The notes under the pieces were generated by a model that searched no databases, was not told the origin of the DNA, and saw nothing but the letters and a program-made list of their open reading frames with translations. A stretch of 64,000 nt of DNA from NCBI GenBank assembly GCA_965200575.1, contig OZ241363.1:1722398-1786397 (forward strand), written 5' to 3'. This document shows positions 45,059 through 53,387 of the stretch, piece by piece (within the stretch, counting starts at the first letter, position 1; each line of letters begins with the position of its first letter). The stretch is from Thermoanaerobaculia bacterium. Lineage in GTDB: Bacteria; Acidobacteriota; Thermoanaerobaculia; Multivoradales; Multivoraceae. The translations under genes and the position numbers were made by a program.

Positions 45059-48000
45059 TCAACCGCGCAGGAAGGCGAGCAGGTCGGCCATGCCGGCTGG
45101 TTCGAGGCCGGCTTCAAGTTCCTCGGGCATCATCGACAGGCCGTCGCTTCGCAGGCTTCGGATGCGGTCGGCGGGCACTTCGAACACCGTGTCGTCGGGG
45201 CCCTTGAGGACCACGCCGCCACCCGCAAGACGCTCTGCAAGCAGCCCCGCAAACACCTCGCCGTTGACCGTTTCGAGGATGTAGTTCACGAACGCCGTGT
45301 CGACAGCGGCATTCGGGTCGAGGATGTCGTGGAGGAGGGTTTCCGCGCTCCGGCGGCCGATGCCGCCGAGATCGGGTCCCGGACCGCCGCCGTGCTCGCC
45401 GAAGCGGTGGCAGCGGGCACAGAGCTCCAGGAACCGGTCCCGGCCGCGCGTCGGGTCGCCCGGGAGGTCGAGCGCCGGGCGCATCGCCTGAAGCGCGTCG
45501 GGTCGCGACACCACCCCGGCGTCGTCGAACAGGGCCGCCGCCCTTCGCCGCACGTCCGGCTCCGGCGACCGAAGCAGGAAGCGGCGGCGTTCGAGGTCGA
45601 AGTTCATCTCGCCGATGCCGATGCGGCCGTCCTCGAGCGCGTCAAGCAGGACGGCGTGTCGCCCCCGGCCCCGGATCAGCCAGGCGCCGGCGTCCCGCTT
45701 CGCGGTCGGACCAAGTCGCGCCCAGCGGTCGATCAGGAACGCGGCGACCTCGCTTTCGTCCGCCCGGGCGAGCGTCTCCATCGCCGCGGCCTGCACCTCG
45801 TCCGGATGGCGAGCCAGAAGCAGCTCGCCGATTCGCTCCAGCCAGGTCCGGTCGTCAGACAGGGCGGCGGCTTCGACCCCGGCGCCCGGGCACTCCACGA
45901 CCCTCCTCGCCACGTCGGCGCCGCCCGGGTTGCGACCGCCCGTCTGCCACGGCGGCCACAGCGCAAACAGATCGAGCGCGCCGAGCCGCTCTTCCACCGT
46001 CCGAGTCGCGTCCCCGGCCCGGACGCCGGCGCAGTCGAGAAGCGCGAGATCGTCGGCGCCGGCCTCCAGGCCAAGCGCCGAAGCGAGGCGCCAGGCGGCG
46101 ATTGCCAGCCGGTCGTCGCCCGACCTGCGCGCCGGTCCGAGAGACGCTTCGAGCGCGGCCTCGTTTAGTCCGGTGGTTTCAAGCGCGCGACGCTCGCGGC
46201 CGCCGAACGCCGCGGCCAGTCCGGCCATGAGCGCCCGCCGCGACTCGACGGCCTGCCCGCCATCGCCGTCCAGGAAGCGCAGGACGGTCGGGTGCGAAAG
46301 CGCCTCGCCGAGCAGGTCCGCCGGAACGAGCCCCGCGAGCTCCTCGGCGACCGCCGAGCCGTCCCGGCCCTCGGCGGCGCCGGACTCCAGCTGGAGCACG
46401 ACAGAGGACACGGGATCCTCCGCCAGCACAGTGACGGCTGCCAGCCGCGTCCAGCGTGCATCGGGTGCTGCCGGTGCCGAGGGCGTCGCAGTCAGGCCGG
46501 CTTCGGCTTCCCCGGCGGCCCCACCTGACCTCGACTCGCGCGCCAGCAGACCGGCGACCACCGCCGCTGCCGCCTTGCGCTCGAACTCGGGGTCCCGGAT
46601 CACGTCGCGCCGCAGCAGGACGCCGGCGGTGAGCACCGCCTGGAAGCGCACGACCGGTGCGGGATCGTCGATCAGCTGTACCAACGTCTGCCGCAGCGGC
46701 GCGAGATCGGCATCCCCGCCGGAGCTGGCCTTTCCCTCCTCGAAGGCGAGCACCGCGTTCCGACGGAGCTCCGGGTGCGGGTCCCGCATGGCCGCCGCCA
46801 GATCGGCCGGTTCCAGCACGCCGAGGCCGGACAGCGTCCACAGTGCATGCAGGCGCTCCACCGGTTCGCCCGATGCCAGGCGCCCGCGCAGCATCCGCTG
46901 CAGCGCAGGCGGGGGCGCCGAGCCGTGCTCCTCGACCAGCAGTCGCTGCGCCGTGGTTCGGCGCCAGCGGTTCTCGTCTCCCAACGCGTCCACCAAGGCC
47001 TCGGTCCGCGAGCGGTCGAAGCCCGCGAAGGGCGCACGATCGCCGGGCAGGCCCCCGGCTGGCACGATGCGGTAGATGCGCCCGCGCTCGTCGCCCTCGC
47101 GCAGGTCGAGCGCCTCCTCGATCCGATCCGGAATCCACTCCGGATGCTCGATGACGGCCCGGTGCATGTCCAGCACGTACAGCTCGCCATCCGGCCCGAC
47201 GTGCAGGTTCACGGGGCGGAAATGGGGATTGGTCGAGGCGAGAAACTCGACCCCGGGCCGCCCCCGCGCCGCCTCGGCAACGACGCCTCTCGCATCGACC
47301 ATGGCGCGATGCACGACGTTGGCCGACGGGTCGGCCACGAAGACGGCGAAGCGCCCGTCATGCCGCCCGGCAGGCTGCGCGTGAAGCCCGGTCGTCCGCC
47401 CGCCCGTCGCTCTCTCGCTCGTCGATGTGTCGCCGTCCACCTCGCCCTGCTGTTTGGACGAGCCCCGTTCCGGGACGACTTCACCGGCTTCCTCGCCGAG
47501 TTCATGAGGCGCCGAAGGTCCAGGTACCGGCCCGGTCGCGACCCGGATCTCGAAGCCCGCATCCAGCACCCCGCCGTCGTAGATCGTGACCGCGCAGGCC
47601 GCCGAGAAACGGCTCGACTGCTCCGGATGGTTGGGCCGCGTCTGCCGTTCGCCGATGGGGAACAGCTCAGCAGGCCCGCCATCAGGGTGCGGCGCCAGCC
47701 GCTGACGACCGTTCTGCCGGGCGGCGGGAAGCCCCTCCAGGTAGCGCCGAGGCACGACGAGCTGGCTCAGGTGCTCCAGGTTGTGGGTGACGAAGGACCG
47801 TCCCCACGGGCCGAAGGTCATGCCGAAGCCGTCGGCGCCGGGGCCAGTGCGCTCGAACCGTCGCGGTCGACGCGAGCCGCCCGGCACTCCGGCAGAGCCG
47901 GGTGCGCCGGCGCCCCCGAAGCGGATCCGGAAGTCGTCCCGCCCCAGCTCCACCGCCTCCTCCGGCGCGTCGGGCCAGAACAGACGGCCGCCGTTGCCAC

Positions 48001-48523
48001 CGTTCACGCCATGAATCCAGTTGTCCAGGCCGTGGCGCAGGCCGTTCACGTTGTGCTGCGGATTGCCCGCGGCGAAACCGCTCAGCATCACTTCGCGCCG
48101 GTCGGCCCGACCGTCGCCGTCCGTGTCCTCGAGGTAGACGAGGTCGGGAGGGGCAGCCACCAGCAAACCCTCTCGCCAGGGCAGGATCGCGTCCGCCATG
48201 CCGAGGTCGTCGGCGAACGGCCGCCTCGTTTCCCAGCGCCCGTCCCGGTCGCGGTCCAGGAGGGACACGATACGCGCCGGCCGCCCCATGTCCGGATAGC
48301 CCGGCAGCTCCAGGACGTATGCGCGGCCGTGTTCGTCGAACGCCAGGTCGACCGGGTCCACGACCACCGGTTCGGCGGCCGCGAGCGCCATCTCGAATCC
48401 GGGATGGAGCACGAAACCCTCCGGCACGCTGTCCGGAGGCGTCGGTCCGCCACAGCCGCCTGCCAGCGCAACGGTCAGAAGCGCCGCGACAGCAGCATGC
48501 GCCGGCTGGGTCCGTCTCCTCAT
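45059..48523 (-). CDS. PVC-type heme-binding CxxCH protein (membrane-bound dehydrogenase domain + HEAT repeats + cytochrome c domain)
   Basis: 1154 aa, lipoprotein-like signal, LELCARCHRFGEHGG heme c site near the C-terminus. Architecture matches TIGR02603/TIGR02604. Confidence 0.75.
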   Translation of the reverse strand: MRRRTQPAHAAVAALLTVALAGGCGGPTPPDSVPEGFVLHPGFEMALAAAEPVVVDPVDLAFDEHGRAYVLELPGYPDMGRPARIVSLLDRDRDGRWETRRPFADDLGMADAILPWREGLLVAAPPDLVYLEDTDGDGRADRREVMLSGFAAGNPQHNVNGLRHGLDNWIHGVNGGNGGRLFWPDAPEEAVELGRDDFRIRFGGAGAPGSAGVPGGSRRPRRFERTGPGADGFGMTFGPWGRSFVTHNLEHLSQLVVPRRYLEGLPAARQNGRQRLAPHPDGGPAELFPIGERQTRPNHPEQSSRFSAACAVTIYDGGVLDAGFEIRVATGPVPGPSAPHELGEEAGEVVPERGSSKQQGEVDGDTSTSERATGGRTTGLHAQPAGRHDGRFAVFVADPSANVVHRAMVDARGVVAEAARGRPGVEFLASTNPHFRPVNLHVGPDGELYVLDMHRAVIEHPEWIPDRIEEALDLREGDERGRIYRIVPAGGLPGDRAPFAGFDRSRTEALVDALGDENRWRRTTAQRLLVEEHGSAPPPALQRMLRGRLASGEPVERLHALWTLSGLGVLEPADLAAAMRDPHPELRRNAVLAFEEGKASSGGDADLAPLRQTLVQLIDDPAPVVRFQAVLTAGVLLRRDVIRDPEFERKAAAAVVAGLLARESRSGGAAGEAEAGLTATPSAPAAPDARWTRLAAVTVLAEDPVSSVVLQLESGAAEGRDGSAVAEELAGLVPADLLGEALSHPTVLRFLDGDGGQAVESRRALMAGLAAAFGGRERRALETTGLNEAALEASLGPARRSGDDRLAIAAWRLASALGLEAGADDLALLDCAGVRAGDATRTVEERLGALDLFALWPPWQTGGRNPGGADVARRVVECPGAGVEAAALSDDRTWLERIGELLLARHPDEVQAAAMETLARADESEVAAFLIDRWARLGPTAKRDAGAWLIRGRGRHAVLLDALEDGRIGIGEMNFDLERRRFLLRSPEPDVRRRAAALFDDAGVVSRPDALQAMRPALDLPGDPTRGRDRFLELCARCHRFGEHGGGPGPDLGGIGRRSAETLLHDILDPNAAVDTAFVNYILETVNGEVFAGLLAERLAGGGVVLKGPDDTVFEVPADRIRSLRSDGLSMMPEELEAGLEPAGMADLLAFLRG

Positions 48524-48953
48524 CGTTCGTCTCCACCCCATCATGCCCGAAGCATGGACTCGCATGGACGACCGACGACGCCGGACGCTTCGCTCAAGCC
48601 GCGTTGGGCCCGCGCGCTTGTTCGCCTGCAGTCAGCTCGCCAGCTGACCCATCCAGCCGCAGCGACCCGAATCCCGGGTGGTCGCCGGACGGCCAGCGGC
48701 TCGTCTTCACCCCCAGCCGATTCGTCACGCCCGGATACACCTGATGAACCTCAACGGTTGTCGTGTCTGCGCCGAGGCCAGGCCGGCCTCGCGGCGCCTC
48801 ATCCCGGCCAAACCCGAGCCGCCAGCGGCCGTGGCGCCCGCAGGCAAGCTCTCGGCTTCCGCGACTGCTATAGTCCGCCGCTGCCGGCGACCGGCCACGG
48901 CCGAGTCGAACCTCCCCAACTCCGACGACAAGGCATCGAGCCGGAGACAGCAC

Positions 48954-49466
48954 ATGAATCGATCCACTCCCCTGGCCTGCCTGCTCGCGACGGCCATGGC
49001 TTCGGCGCCCGCGGCCGCCGACCTCTCCGTCGGCGACACGGCGCCGGACTTCACCCTGCCCGCGACCGACGGAACCCGGGTCACGCTGTCTTCCTTCGCC
49101 GGGCAGAAGCAGGTAGTGCTCGCCTTCTTCCCGAAGGCCTTCACCGGCGGCTGAACGGCTCAGATGAAGGGATACCAGGCTGGTATCTCAGAGTTCACCG
49201 ACAGCGACTCCATCATCTTCGGCATCAGCGCCGACAAGCTGGAGGACAACAAGAGGTTCGCAGAGGAGCTGGAGCTCGACTTCCTGCTTCTGAGTGACGT
49301 GGACGCCACGGTGATCAACCAGTACGGCGGCACGATGGAGCGGTACGCGGGCATCGCGAAGCGCGTCACCTACGTGGTCGACCTTGACGGCAAGGTCTCG
49401 TATGTCGGCGTGGGCGCCGACGCAATGGACCCGGCCGGCGCCCAGGCCGCCTGTCAGGGCGAGTAG
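48954..49466 (+). CDS. Bcp-type peroxiredoxin, putative selenoprotein (in-frame UGA at the peroxidatic Cys position, codon 67 = 49152-49154)
   Basis: ORFs 48954-49154 and 49164-49466 are in the same frame, separated by a single TGA. The joined sequence ...[13 protein letters not shown][U]TAQMKGY...[26 protein letters not shown] aligns with E. coli Bcp ...VLVYFYPKAMTPG[C]TVQACGL...GISTDKPEKLSRFAEKELLNFTLLSD. Signal peptide present; SECIS-like hairpin downstream. Confidence 0.7.
49155..49195 (+). promoter_or_regulatory. putative bacterial SECIS hairpin
   Basis: The stem gatacc/ggtatc (49171-76/49182-87) with GG-containing apical loop aggct begins 16 nt after the UGA. This is within the spacing expected of bacterial SECIS elements. 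Confidence 0.5.
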
Positions 49467-49696: not shown

Positions 49697-50185
49697 TCAA
49701 GGCTCGCTCGGGGCCACCTTGCCCAGGCCCGCCTGGCGCGCTTCGGCTTCGGTTCGCGGCCTGTAGAGCTCGACGCGGTTGCCGTCGCAGTCGCGCACCC
49801 AGGCGAACTCGGCGTAGCCCTCGTCGTCCCGGCGCAGCGGCTCGATTCCTCGCTCGGCAAGGCGCGCGAGCACGGCATCCATGTCGCGCACGCGGAGATT
49901 CACCATGAACGGCTGGTCGCCGTACATGTCCTCCTGCTTCGAACCATCGTTCGGCGACATTCGCGGAAGCGGACGCTTCGCCTTCATCACCGCGAAGGTG
50001 GTATCGACCACGCGGTCGGGCCCGTCCGGGTCGGCAGCCACGTAGCGGACGTGAAACGCCCCGAACTCCTCGCCGCTCTCGAACTCGACGCCCAGGTGCT
50101 CCGTGTACCAGGCGGCCAGCCGTTTCGGTTCCTCGCTGAAGACGAAGGCGCCGCCGACGCCGTCCACCAGGTTCCCGGCGCTCAC
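49697..50185 (-). CDS. VOC-family (glyoxalase/bleomycin-resistance fold) protein
   Basis: 162 aa with two beta-alpha-beta-beta-beta modules (WYTEHLGVEF...WVRDCDGNRVELY). Confidence 0.7.
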   Translation of the reverse strand: MSAGNLVDGVGGAFVFSEEPKRLAAWYTEHLGVEFESGEEFGAFHVRYVAADPDGPDRVVDTTFAVMKAKRPLPRMSPNDGSKQEDMYGDQPFMVNLRVRDMDAVLARLAERGIEPLRRDDEGYAEFAWVRDCDGNRVELYRPRTEAEARQAGLGKVAPSEP

Positions 50186-51908: not shown

Positions 51909-53387
51909 ATGAGCGACTCAACGACAGCCGCACCGCCGCCCGATGCCGACATCGGCTGGTGGTCGGCCGCCGAGGCGGCGGCGGCGATTCGCGCCCGCCG
52001 CATCTCCTCGCGCGACCATCTCGAGCACCTGCTCGACCGGACCGGCAGGCTGAACCCGCCGCTGAACGCGGTCGTCACGGTGGACGCCGAGCGCGCCCGC
52101 GCCGAAGCCGACGCCGCCGACCGCGCCCTGGCCGAAGGCCGTCCCGTCGGCCCGCTGCACGGCGTCGCCATGACCATCAAGGACTCATTCCAGACCCGCG
52201 GCATGCGCACGACGTCCGGCGCGCCCGAGCTGGCAGACCACGTGCCCGATGTCGACGCTGTTCCCGTCGCCAGGCTGCGCGCGGCGGGCGCGGTCATCTT
52301 CGGCAAGACGAACCTGCCCATCTACGCCGGCGACACGCAGAGCTACAACGACGTGTTCGGCCAGACGAACAACCCCTGGAACCTGGAACGCACCTGCGGC
52401 GGTTCCTCGGGTGGCAGCGCCGCGGCGCTCGCTGCCGGCCTCACGCCGCTCGAACTCGGCAGCGACATTGCCGGCTCGATTCGCGGCCCGGCCTCGACCT
52501 GCGGCGTCTTCGGTCACAAGCCGAGCTACGGCATCGTCCCGGCGCTGGGGCAGATCCCCGGTCCTCCCGGCACCCTGACCCAGGCCGATCTCGCGGTCGC
52601 CGGCCCGATGGCGCGCTGCGTCGAGGACCTGGAGCTGGCGCTTGACGTTCTCGCCGGTCCCGACGACTGGCACGCGCCCGGCTATCGCCTCGAACTGCCG
52701 CCGCCGCGCCATGACCGTCTGGCCGACTACCGCGTCGCCGTGTGGTTCGACGAGCCCTCCTGCCCCGTCGACGACCGCGTCCGGGAGCGACTGGAAGCTG
52801 CCGCCGACGCGCTCGAGGCCGCCGGCGCCGCCGTGGACCGCGAGGCCCGGCCCGACTTCACGTTCGAGTACGCCACCCGCGTCTTCGGCCAGCTCCTGGG
52901 CGCGGCCATGTGCGGCGGCTTCAGCCACCACGAAGTCGAGGAGTTCGCCGCACGCGGCATGCGCGAAGACGAGGAGGGCGCCCTGGCCGCACGCTGGGCC
53001 AGCCAGCGCCATCGGGCCTGGCTGTCGGCGAACGAGCGCCGTCTGCAGATGCGCCGCAAGTGGCACGAGTTCCTGGGCGCCCACGACGCCGTGCTCCTCC
53101 CCTGCCTGCCGACCACGGCGATCCCCCACGACCAGAGCCAGCCGGTGGGCGCTCGACGAATCACCGTCAACGGCGAGCAGCGCGCCTACGGCGAGCAGAC
53201 GCTCTGGGTCGGCCTGACCGGCGTCGCCTACCTGCCGGCCACGGTCATTCCGGCCGGCGCCGCATCCGACGGCCTGCCCGTCGGCCTGCAGATCGCCGGG
53301 CCGTTTCTCGCGGACCGCACCACCCTGGACCTGGCCCGCCGCCTGAACGAACGCCTCGACGGCTTCGCCAGACCGCCCGGCTTCTGA
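51909..53387 (+). CDS. amidase (amidase-signature family)
   Basis: GGSSGGSAAALAAG...GSDIAGSIRGPA amidase signature; 492 aa. Confidence 0.9.
   Translation: MSDSTTAAPPPDADIGWWSAAEAAAAIRARRISSRDHLEHLLDRTGRLNPPLNAVVTVDAERARAEADAADRALAEGRPVGPLHGVAMTIKDSFQTRGMRTTSGAPELADHVPDVDAVPVARLRAAGAVIFGKTNLPIYAGDTQSYNDVFGQTNNPWNLERTCGGSSGGSAAALAAGLTPLELGSDIAGSIRGPASTCGVFGHKPSYGIVPALGQIPGPPGTLTQADLAVAGPMARCVEDLELALDVLAGPDDWHAPGYRLELPPPRHDRLADYRVAVWFDEPSCPVDDRVRERLEAAADALEAAGAAVDREARPDFTFEYATRVFGQLLGAAMCGGFSHHEVEEFAARGMREDEEGALAARWASQRHRAWLSANERRLQMRRKWHEFLGAHDAVLLPCLPTTAIPHDQSQPVGARRITVNGEQRAYGEQTLWVGLTGVAYLPATVIPAGAASDGLPVGLQIAGPFLADRTTLDLARRLNERLDGFARPPGF

What the first reader, a model, noticed from the sequence alone, without database searches (positions are those of the whole stretch)
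48954..49466. Probable selenocysteine-containing Bcp-type peroxiredoxin with SECIS-like hairpin
Two same-frame ORFs (48954-49154 and 49164-49466) are separated by one TGA. The joined translation aligns end-to-end with E. coli Bcp. The TGA falls exactly on the peroxidatic Cys of the FYPKAMTPGC motif, which here reads [14 protein letters not shown] stem-loop (gatacc-aggct-ggtatc, 49171-49187) with a GG-containing apical loop begins 16 nt 3' of the UGA, as expected for a bacterial SECIS. The protein has a signal peptide, which suggests a periplasmic Sec-peroxiredoxin. No resolving Cys follows the Sec (M replaces C), suggesting a 1-Sec mechanism. This implies the genome encodes selA, selB, selC and selD elsewhere.
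Basis: partly seen in the sequence, partly recalled or inferred. Interest (0 to 1): 0.8.

Follow-up and report, generated by a model that had tools for sequence, protein, structure and literature searches.

The report
Selenocysteine peroxiredoxin gene with SECIS hairpin
This is most likely a real gene for an exported peroxide-destroying enzyme whose catalytic cysteine is replaced by selenocysteine, a known kind of bacterial selenoprotein that gene callers here wrongly split into two short genes.

Summary
Window 48954-49466 (+) is one reading frame with a single TGA at 49152-49154. The TGA falls on the peroxidatic Cys of an AhpC/TSA peroxiredoxin (Pfam 1.6e-32).

- All 40 related genomes, all labelled Acidobacteriota (Thermoanaerobaculia/'Ca. 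Multivorans', Bryobacterales and others), carry TGA at this codon. Across all loci fetched, 105 of 128 family genes do, and the other 23 have TGC/TGT.
- Both halves are under purifying selection (dN/dS 0.22 and 0.36).
- The hairpin at 49169-49189 fits the published bacterial SECIS consensus. It is conserved down to non-preferred codons (GCT, GGT, GGA) and shows compensatory changes. It is mostly absent from the Cys forms.

I therefore read this as a genuine Sec-peroxiredoxin, a selenoprotein family that is already known (TxxU, PF00578).

- It is not an E. coli Bcp equivalog. It sits between AhpE and BCP/PrxQ.
- The '1-Sec' mechanism is unlikely. Every mature Sec form that is complete at its 3' end has exactly one Cys, in the last helix (Cys167), which is the expected place for an alpha5-type resolving Cys.

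The Sec machinery (selA/B/C/D) is not in the window and could not be linked to this genome.

Verdict: a new member of a known kind, of moderate-to-low interest. Its main value is for annotation.

The parts
48954..49466 (+). Complete selenoprotein gene. The precursor is 170 aa, made of 66 codons, UGA(Sec67), 103 codons and a TAG stop.
   Evidence: Translation. Pfam AhpC-TSA 1.6e-32 over residues 26-150. Orthologs with the same structure in 40 genomes.
48941..48944 (+). GGAG, a likely ribosome-binding site 9 nt upstream of the ATG.
   Evidence: Read directly from the sequence. Gene callers on identical contigs start the 66-aa ORF at this ATG. This is an inference.
48954..49019 (+). N-terminal signal-peptide-like extension ([22 protein letters not shown], then DLSV); the cleavage site after AAA is a guess.
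   Evidence: The Prx domain begins at residue 24-26. The best 10-aa hydrophobic window has mean KD 2.23, and 98% of 126 family genes have such a segment. No SignalP was available.
49131..49154 (+). Active-site motif P60-K-A-F-T64-G-G-U67 (PxxxTxxU).
   Evidence: It aligns to PxxxTxxC of PDB peroxiredoxins and of the Cys homologs [14 protein letters not shown].
49152..49154 (+). In-frame UGA, the proposed Sec67 codon.
   Evidence: TGA sits at this codon in all 40 genome loci and in 105 of 128 family genes; the rest have TGC/TGT.
49169..49189 (+). SECIS hairpin: a 9-bp stem (GGGAUACCA / UGGUAUCUC) with apical loop GGC, or an 8-bp stem with loop A-G-G-C-U. The loop starts 22-23 nt after the UGA.
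   Evidence: fold; conservation and covariation; synonymous-site constraint; contrast with Cys forms. Consensus criteria from PMC13188914.
49362..49364 (+). Codon of Arg137, the conserved catalytic Arg of peroxiredoxins.
   Evidence: Invariant column R137 in alignments A1 and A4.
49452..49454 (+). Codon of Cys167, the only Cys of the mature protein and the candidate resolving Cys in the last (alpha5) helix.
   Evidence: Invariant in A1 and A2. Present in 103 of 104 Sec forms and 23 of 23 Cys forms, with no other Cys in the mature Sec forms. The last helix, H164-173, of the model of Cys homolog P0006 contains it.

Best explanation
The region is one gene for an exported peroxiredoxin of the AhpE/BCP-PrxQ type whose peroxidatic residue is selenocysteine.

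During translation, SelB carrying Sec-tRNA(Sec) binds the hairpin at 49169-49189. It decodes UGA67 as Sec instead of allowing termination (inferred). The 170-aa precursor is exported through its N-terminal signal peptide (inferred).

In the cell envelope, the selenolate of Sec67 reduces H2O2 or organic hydroperoxides and becomes a selenenic acid. PxxxTxxU and Arg137 form the active site. Cys167 in helix alpha5 then most likely forms an intramolecular selenenylsulfide. An envelope thioredoxin-like protein fed by a DsbD/ScsB/CcdA-type transporter would reduce that bond, as shown for the Cys enzyme PprX of Caulobacter (inferred by analogy).

Shown here:
- the gene structure;
- homology and the position of the UGA;
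- conservation of the UGA across many genomes;
- selection on both halves of the gene;
- RNA-level conservation of the hairpin.

Not shown here:
- selenium incorporation;
- presence of the Sec machinery in this genome;
- export;
- the role of Cys167;
- the reductant.
For: 1. Family. Pfam AhpC-TSA 1.6e-32. PDB hits to Prx-like 2ywn, AhpE and Bcp1/Bcp4, with the TGA opposite the peroxidatic Cys. The AlphaFold model of Cys homolog P0006 (pLDDT 89.7) matches Bcp4, Bcp1 and AhpE at target-normalised TM 0.86-0.92.

2. Sec/Cys pair. Full-length homologs read [21 protein letters not shown]. Dozens of database 'proteins' of 100-104 aa start right after the TGA.

3. Conserved UGA. It is present in 40 of 40 genome loci from distinct species and in 105 of 128 family genes overall. 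Three independent assemblies of the same organism are identical.

4. Both halves are selected: dN/dS 0.22 upstream and 0.36 downstream.

5. SECIS.
- The loop A-G-[G/U]-N-N, the spacing of 22-23 nt, the 8-9 bp stem and the energy of -11.6 kcal/mol meet every criterion of the bSECIS consensus.
- 83-87% of cells are paired, against 22-59% when the partner is slid.
- There are compensatory changes, such as GGAUACC/GGUAUCC to GCAUACC/GGUAUGC, and the observed covariation score was reached in 0 of 500 shuffles.
- Synonymous diversity is 0.054 at the hairpin codons and 0.17-0.27 elsewhere. GCT and GGT are fixed in 40 of 40 sequences, although sampled Ala and Gly codons elsewhere in the gene are mostly GCC and GGC.
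- Mean fold energy of this segment is -10.8 kcal/mol in Sec forms and -4.4 in Cys forms.

6. TGA is otherwise the normal stop in this window (26 of 30 long ORFs), so the code is not reassigned.

7. The Sec trait exists in the phylum. Solibacter has SelA, SelB and Sec-FdhA, and SelA is abundant in Bryobacteraceae and Terriglobales.
Against: - No selA, selB or selD motif and no tRNA-Sec lies in the 64-kb window or in the flanks of the 40 orthologous loci.
- Two SelA searches did not retrieve a SelA that could be tied to this genome or to a 'Ca. Multivorans' chromosome. Those lists show only the best 120 hits, so this is not evidence of absence.
- No Rfam family matches the hairpin.
- One Cys form (L063) keeps the hairpin, so the hairpin is not strictly tied to UGA.
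- The upper 5 bp of the stem are almost invariant and therefore give no covariation signal. The lower stem needs two registers.
- Export and the role of Cys167 rest on heuristics and analogy.
Confidence: 0.9

Rival explanations
1. UGA67 is recoded through the SECIS/SelB route but inserts cysteine, by way of a tRNA(Sec)-like tRNA(Cys) (selC*), or a mixture of Sec and Cys that depends on selenium supply.
For: Such selC* tRNA(Cys) opal suppressors are described, and unusual allo-tRNAs occur in Acidobacteria (PMC5389517). Nothing measured here distinguishes Sec from Cys at the protein level.
Against: In that paper selC* genes were reported in Firmicutes, Thermodesulfobacteria, Nitrospirae and Proteobacteria, not in Acidobacteria. 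Some contigs carry a normal TGC paralog beside the TGA gene, which would make a UGA-to-Cys copy redundant.
Confidence: 0.04
2. It is a disrupted gene or pseudogene. The TGA is a true stop, and the 66-aa and 100-aa pieces are non-functional or act as separate polypeptides.
For: Public gene calls annotate it as two ORFs. An ATG lies 3 codons after the TGA. The Sec machinery has not been demonstrated for this genome.
Against: The same TGA is present in 40 of 40 species-level genomes and 105 of 128 family genes. dN/dS is 0.22 and 0.36 on the two sides. Neither piece would contain the catalytic residue. RNA-level constraint falls exactly on the hairpin.
Confidence: 0.03
3. The TGA is a sequencing or assembly error for TGC/TGT.
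For: A single base change would restore Cys, and Cys forms of the family exist.
Against: Three independent assemblies from different samples have an identical TGA, and so do all the orthologs.
Confidence: 0.005
4. The hairpin is conserved for a reason unrelated to Sec insertion, such as amino-acid conservation of KGYQAGIS or mRNA stability, and UGA is read through by near-cognate tRNAs.
For: The peptide YQAGI is conserved in some Cys forms too, and Cys form L063 keeps the hairpin.
Against: Synonymous positions are frozen on non-preferred codons. Cys forms that encode Y-Q-A-G or similar use other codons and fold weakly. The lower stem shows compensatory changes linked to amino-acid changes. Near-cognate read-through would put Trp, Cys or Arg at a catalytic position at low yield.
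Confidence: 0.025

Closest known systems
Bacterial Sec-containing peroxiredoxins (Prx selenoprotein family, PF00578, TxxU motif; prototype PrxU of Eubacterium acidaminophilum)
   Same: Sec replaces the peroxidatic Cys in PxxxTxxC. A bSECIS hairpin lies just downstream of the UGA. Cys-containing homologs are common. The family is listed as an established selenoprotein family (PMC13188914; 12 members counted in 2006, PMC1794560).
   Different: The match to the PrxU equivalog NF040737 is only 43.8 bits against a cut-off of 270, so this is a different Prx subfamily. This one has a signal peptide and an alpha5 Cys. The motif 'GGUT' is absent from the held text of the 2006 supplementary sequence sets.
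AhpE subgroup of peroxiredoxins (M. tuberculosis Rv2238c)
   Same: Similar size and fold (target-normalised TM 0.87-0.92, about 35% identity to the modelled Cys homolog). The subgroup is known to include members with a resolving Cys in helix alpha5 (PMC4749874).
   Different: M. tuberculosis AhpE is a cytoplasmic 1-Cys enzyme with Cys, not Sec. No active-site-profile classification (PREX) was run here.
BCP/PrxQ subgroup (E. coli Bcp, Sulfolobus Bcp1/Bcp4)
   Same: These are the best fold matches (3hjp, 3drn). The best NCBIfam hit is the Bcp model.
   Different: The score is below the Bcp equivalog cut-off (93 versus 140 bits). There is no Cys at CP+5. The protein appears to be exported.
PprX, the cell-envelope peroxiredoxin of Caulobacter crescentus (ScsB to TlpA to PprX pathway)
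   Same: It is an exported PrxQ-type peroxidase with a signal sequence of about 20 aa and a non-canonical resolving-Cys position. It provides a precedent for how an envelope Prx is re-reduced (PMC3322552).
   Different: PprX uses Cys. Homology to PprX was not tested directly, and no DsbD, ScsB or TlpA gene was looked for next to this gene.

Membership tests
Peroxiredoxin superfamily (AhpC/TSA, PF00578) | Significant match to the family profile above the curated threshold | tested here: met
   112.4 bits against a cut-off of 26, residues 26-150, profile positions 1-123 of 124 (query with Cys written at the UGA).
Peroxiredoxin superfamily (AhpC/TSA, PF00578) | PxxxTxxC active-site motif with the peroxidatic residue at the first turn of helix alpha2, plus the conserved Arg | tested here: met
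   P60-xxx-T64-xx-U67, and R137 is an invariant column. In the model of Cys homolog P0006 the Cys lies at the start of helix 69-80.
Peroxiredoxin superfamily (AhpC/TSA, PF00578) | Thioredoxin-like Prx fold | tested here: met
   Tested on a Cys homolog 57% identical to the window protein, not on the window protein itself. pLDDT 89.7; Foldseek E 5.6e-17 to Bcp4, and AhpE at target-normalised TM 0.87-0.92.
Bacterial selenoprotein (Sec-Prx, TxxU) | In-frame UGA aligned with a redox-active Cys in homologs | tested here: met
   (23 TGC/TGT forms against 105 TGA forms).
Bacterial selenoprotein (Sec-Prx, TxxU) | Sequence conservation on both sides of the UGA across species | tested here: met
   40 of 40 genomes. 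dN/dS 0.22 and 0.36.
Bacterial selenoprotein (Sec-Prx, TxxU) | bSECIS consensus: 3-9 nt apical loop with G in its first two positions, 4-16 bp upper stem, 16-37 nt from UGA to loop, MFE at or below -7.5 kcal/mol | tested here: met
   Loop A-G-G-C-U (or GGC), 8-9 bp stem, 22-23 nt spacing, -11.6 kcal/mol. Criteria from PMC13188914. Conservation and covariation.
Bacterial selenoprotein (Sec-Prx, TxxU) | Genome encodes SelA, SelB, SelD and tRNA(Sec) | not testable with these tools
   None in the window or the ortholog flanks. The rest of the 3.87-Mb contig could not be read. SelA searches did not reach this lineage. The Sec trait is documented elsewhere in the phylum.
Bacterial selenoprotein (Sec-Prx, TxxU) | Selenium shown in the protein (75Se labelling or mass spectrometry) | not testable with these tools
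   Requires an experiment.
E. coli Bcp equivalog (NF006960) | Score above the curated equivalog cut-off | tested here: not met
   93.1 bits against a cut-off of 140.
E. coli Bcp equivalog (NF006960) | Resolving Cys five residues after the peroxidatic Cys (helix alpha2) | tested here: not met
   The sequence after U67 is T-A-Q-M-K, with no Cys. The only Cys of the mature protein is Cys167.
PrxU equivalog (NF040737) | Score above the curated cut-off | tested here: not met
   43.8 bits against a cut-off of 270.
AhpE subgroup with alpha5 resolving Cys | Conserved Cys in helix alpha5 that pairs with the peroxidatic residue | tested here: inconclusive
   The Cys is conserved and lies in the predicted last helix. 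The CP-CR distance and the bond itself were not measured, and no PREX active-site profile was run.

The most novel reading that the evidence does not exclude
This is a previously undescribed, widely distributed clade of cell-envelope selenoperoxidases in Acidobacteriota. They are exported AhpE/PrxQ-like enzymes that cycle through an intramolecular Sec67-Cys167 (alpha5) selenenylsulfide. A Cys paralog is often encoded next to them and may serve as a backup when selenium is scarce. Public annotation systematically splits them into two ORFs.
Probability: 0.45. Interest if true: 0.4.

Novelty: new member of a known kind. Interest (0 to 1): 0.3.

Why it matters
Selenocysteine peroxiredoxins are already known, so this does not change how the biology is understood. 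The value is practical and ecological.

- In the data examined here, this clade of exported Sec-peroxiredoxins is annotated as two fragments of about 66 and about 100 aa. It matches no curated NCBIfam model above its cut-off.
- All 40 genomes retrieved carry the TGA form, in marine, sponge-associated and other Acidobacteriota, and most of the metagenome genes retrieved do too.
- Reading it correctly marks these organisms as probable selenium users.
- It would add a peroxide-scavenging selenoenzyme to their cell envelope.
- The tandem Sec/Cys paralogs offer a natural system for studying why Sec is kept over Cys.

Tried and rejected
1. Sec machinery, sought in several ways without a decisive result.
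- ARAGORN found no tRNA in the window or the 40 ortholog loci, apart from one tRNA-Arg.
- Motif scans for SelA, SelB and SelD in six frames of the window found nothing.
- I took the Solibacter SelA sequence from a paper supplement and used it in a homolog search. The top 120 hits are all close relatives of the Solibacter query (72% identity or more; the few named ones are Bryobacteraceae/Acidobacteriia). None sits on a contig whose length matches the window genome (3,870,768 bp) or a 'Ca. Multivorans' chromosome.
- I then ran a representative search and picked the high-GC representative nearest to Solibacter (P0262). P0254 was discarded because part of it is frameshifted.
- The last homolog search, with P0262, found a small unidentified lineage (JAJYIU01) and Terriglobales, with no link to this genome.
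- All of this leaves the question open. It is not evidence of absence.

2. Rfam, at gathering and at E-value thresholds, gave no SECIS family and only chance-level hits.

3. No promoter or terminator consensus was found around the gene.

5. A first pattern search with the wrong spacer length returned nothing. The corrected search is.

6. A search for other split selenoprotein genes in the window and in the ortholog flanks found none.

7. The pseudogene, sequencing-error and code-reassignment readings were rejected.

Full report
**1.

Window 48954-49466 on the + strand is a single reading frame. It runs from ATG 48954 to TAG 49464-49466 and is interrupted once, by TGA at 49152-49154, which is codon 67. 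A GGAG lies 9 nt upstream of the ATG.

The palindrome gatacc-aggct-ggtatc is at 49171-49187, 16 nt after the UGA, as stated. It extends to nine pairs, 49169-49189. Folded alone it gives -11.6 kcal/mol, z = -3.67, and none of 200 shuffles folds as well. Within a 64-nt context the total energy is unremarkable (z = -0.77). The fold energy therefore does not carry the argument; the comparative data do. The core TACCAGGCTGGTA occurs once in 64 kb, against 0.03 expected.

**2. What the protein is**

With Cys written at the UGA, the 170-aa product matches Pfam AhpC-TSA at 1.6e-32 over residues 26-150. It also matches solved peroxiredoxins: Sulfolobus tokodaii Prx-like 2ywn at 1.3e-23, M. tuberculosis AhpE at about 5e-19, and Sulfolobus Bcp1 and Bcp4. 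In these alignments the UGA lies exactly opposite the peroxidatic Cys.

The motif reads P60-K-A-F-T64-G-G-U67, which is PxxxTxxU, and Arg137 is an invariant column.

NCBIfam gives its best hit to the Bcp equivalog, but at 93 bits against a cut-off of 140. The selenoprotein PrxU model scores 44 bits against a cut-off of 270. The protein is therefore a peroxiredoxin, but not an equivalog of either.

That model has pLDDT 89.7. It superposes on Bcp4, Bcp1 and AhpE at target-normalised TM 0.86-0.92.

**3. The UGA is conserved, not accidental**

A search of 5.8 billion proteins returned two kinds of relatives:
- Full-length Cys forms of 170-185 aa, about 50% identical, reading [21 protein letters not shown].
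- Dozens of 100-104-aa 'proteins', 65-84% identical, that all begin just after the position of the UGA. This is the signature of a selenoprotein gene cut in two by gene callers.

The window's own gene occurs identically, TGA included, in three independent assemblies. There it is called as ORFs of 66 aa and 100 aa.

A scan of one genome per species found 40 loci. They are labelled 'Ca. Multivorans' and other Thermoanaerobaculia, Holophagales (sponge MAGs), Vicinamibacteraceae and Bryobacterales. All 40 have TGA at this codon, including L043 at only 42% identity. A metagenome scan added 80 loci. Over all loci, 105 of 128 family genes have TGA and 23 have TGC or TGT.

Comparing the window with 39 orthologs gives dN/dS of 0.22 for the 42 codons before the UGA and 0.36 for codons +13 to +96. 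Both halves are therefore under purifying selection.

TGA is also the ordinary stop codon in this window, ending 26 of 30 long high-GC3 ORFs. Code reassignment is excluded. These data dispose of the pseudogene and sequencing-error readings.

**4. The hairpin behaves as a bacterial SECIS**

The published consensus requires four things (PMC13188914):
- an apical loop of 3-9 nt with G in one of its first two positions, typically N1-G-[G/U]-N-N2;
- an upper stem of 4-16 bp;
- 16-37 nt between the UGA and the loop;
- a fold energy of -7.5 kcal/mol or lower.

Here the loop is A-G-G-C-U, the stem is 8-9 bp, the spacing is 22-23 nt and the energy is -11.6 kcal/mol. All four are met.

Across 75 distinct Sec-form sequences, the upper five pairs (UACCA/UGGUA) are nearly invariant. 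The loop varies only as AGGCU, AGUCU or AGUUA.

The lower stem exists in two registers, one of them with a bulged U. It shows compensatory changes tied to amino-acid changes:
- GGAUACC/GGUAUCC (Gly...Ile);
- GCAUACC/GGUAUGC (Ala...Met);
- GGCGUACC/GGUA-U-CGCC;
- GCGCUCC/GGA-A-GCGC in L099.

For the two registers, 83% and 87% of cells are paired, against 22-59% when the partner is slid. The observed covariation score was reached in 0 of 500 shuffles.

Among the 40 genome-derived sequences, synonymous diversity is 0.054 at the hairpin codons and 0.17-0.27 elsewhere. Ala is fixed as GCT and Gly as GGT in 40 of 40 sequences, and the first Gly as GGA in 32 of 34. Sampled Ala and Gly codons elsewhere in the same gene are mostly GCC and GGC.

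The same 27-nt segment folds at a mean of -10.8 kcal/mol in Sec forms and -4.4 in Cys forms. Cys forms encoding similar peptides use other codons. The one exception is L063, a TGC form that keeps the hairpin, which looks like a recent Sec-to-Cys conversion.

Rfam has no matching family.

**5.

The Prx domain starts at residue 24-26. It is preceded by [22 protein letters not shown], which has a charged start, a hydrophobic core and an Ala-rich end. In 98% of 126 family genes there is such a hydrophobic segment before the domain, and a few Cys forms have twin-arginine-like motifs. Export to the cell envelope is therefore a reasonable inference, but no signal-peptide predictor was available.

There is indeed no Cys at CP+5. 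However, every mature Sec form that is complete at its 3' end contains exactly one Cys (103 of 104; the exception, L038, is disrupted near its 3' end). That Cys sits in the motif A-C-x-x-L in the last helix, at Cys167 in the window protein. All 23 Cys forms have it too. In the model it lies in helix 164-173, the alpha5 position.

The peroxiredoxin literature recognises alpha5 as one of five resolving-Cys locations. It notes that the AhpE group contains members with a resolving Cys in alpha5 (PMC4749874).

The most likely cycle has three steps:
- Sec67 selenolate is oxidised to selenenic acid.
- An intramolecular Se-S bond forms with Cys167.
- An envelope thioredoxin-like protein reduces that bond.

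The last step is inferred by analogy with the exported Cys enzyme PprX of Caulobacter, which is reduced by ScsB or DsbD through TlpA (PMC3322552). None of these steps is shown here.

**6. What could not be settled**

The Sec trait does exist in the phylum:
- The 2006 survey counts three selenoprotein families in Acidobacteria. Its supplement gives Solibacter SelA, SelB and two Sec-FdhA sequences.
- Occallatibacter is listed as Sec-utilising.
- SelA is abundant among relatives of Solibacter (the named ones Bryobacteraceae/Acidobacteriia) and among Terriglobales.

I tried to reach the SelA of the window's own lineage by matching contig lengths. I used a homolog search, then a representative search, then a second homolog search. 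None succeeded. Those lists show only the best 120-150 hits, so this says nothing about absence.

A subtle rival is that SECIS/SelB-dependent decoding inserts Cys through a selC*-type tRNA (PMC5389517). It cannot be excluded from sequence, but it has not been reported in this phylum.

**7. Comparison with what is known, and novelty**

Sec-peroxiredoxin (PF00578, TxxU) is an established bacterial selenoprotein family. The finding is therefore a correct identification of a member of a known kind, not a new principle.

Four features are particular to this clade:
- it lies between AhpE and PrxQ;
- it has a signal peptide;
- it has an alpha5 Cys;
- every genome retrieved in the scan is labelled Acidobacteriota.

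It has no curated NCBIfam model above cut-off. It is split into two ORFs in public gene calls, and its 'GGUT' motif is absent from the held text of the 2006 sequence sets. Several metagenome contigs carry a Sec gene and a Cys paralog side by side (L079, L082, L083, L096).

**8. Verdict**

I put 0.9 on a genuine Sec-peroxiredoxin gene with a functional SECIS. Novelty is 'new member of a known kind'. Interest is 0.3: a specialist would not be surprised, and the value lies mainly in annotation and ecology.

Noticed in passing
L079:1208 and 1815; L082:1072 and 1679; L083:126 and 812; L096:1136 and 1742: Four metagenome contigs carry a Sec (TGA) gene and a Cys (TGC) paralog of the same exported peroxiredoxin in tandem, about 600 nt apart. 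This may be a Sec form with a Cys backup.
   Followed up: partly
L063, family gene with TGC at the active-site codon: This Cys-form gene still carries the SECIS-like hairpin GGAUACCAGGCUGGUAUUC (-9.3 kcal/mol). That suggests a recent Sec-to-Cys conversion.
   Followed up: no
L044:1202 (protein P0009): An ENA protein record prints Trp at the TGA (FTGGWTREM), while the contig has TGA followed by the hairpin. This is an annotation artefact, not a Trp variant.
   Followed up: partly
L004-L036, columns 4-12 and 56-64 after the UGA: In most 'Ca. Multivorans' orthologs an outer helix ACGAUGGAA...UUCCAUCGU encloses the SECIS hairpin, giving -20 to -26 kcal/mol over 66 nt. It is absent in the window gene, L037 and L040. 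It may be a lineage-specific extended SECIS or may follow from the coding sequence.
   Followed up: no
window 45059-48565 (-): The divergent upstream neighbour is a 1168-aa protein with DUF7133, HEAT-like repeats and a CxxCH haem-binding motif near its C-terminus (CARCH). The same neighbours (this protein, a glyoxalase-like gene at 49697-50185 and, where the contig extends that far, an amidase at 51909-53387) appear in independent contigs of the same organism.
   Followed up: no
window, whole: TGA ends 26 of 30 long high-GC3 ORFs and TAG ends 4, with no TAA. GC content is 68-73% throughout. No tRNA gene and no Rfam family at gathering score was found in 64 kb.
   Followed up: yes
L038:2922 onward: This ortholog loses the frame near its 3' end (…GKDGKAAMRWTRRAR*) and so lacks the C-terminal Cys. 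It is probably a frameshift or assembly error in that MAG.
   Followed up: no
L124-L127 (SelA loci, e.g. JAJYIU010000008.1): A high-GC SelA lineage whose nearest neighbour among the representatives is Solibacter SelA has selA between uvrA-like and aminotransferase genes, with no adjacent selB. Its organism was not identified.
   Followed up: partly
P0254: This representative SelA sequence has an internally frameshifted stretch (columns about 150-230 of alignment A6), which inflates its Gly/Ala/Arg/Pro content. I discarded it as a query.
   Followed up: yes
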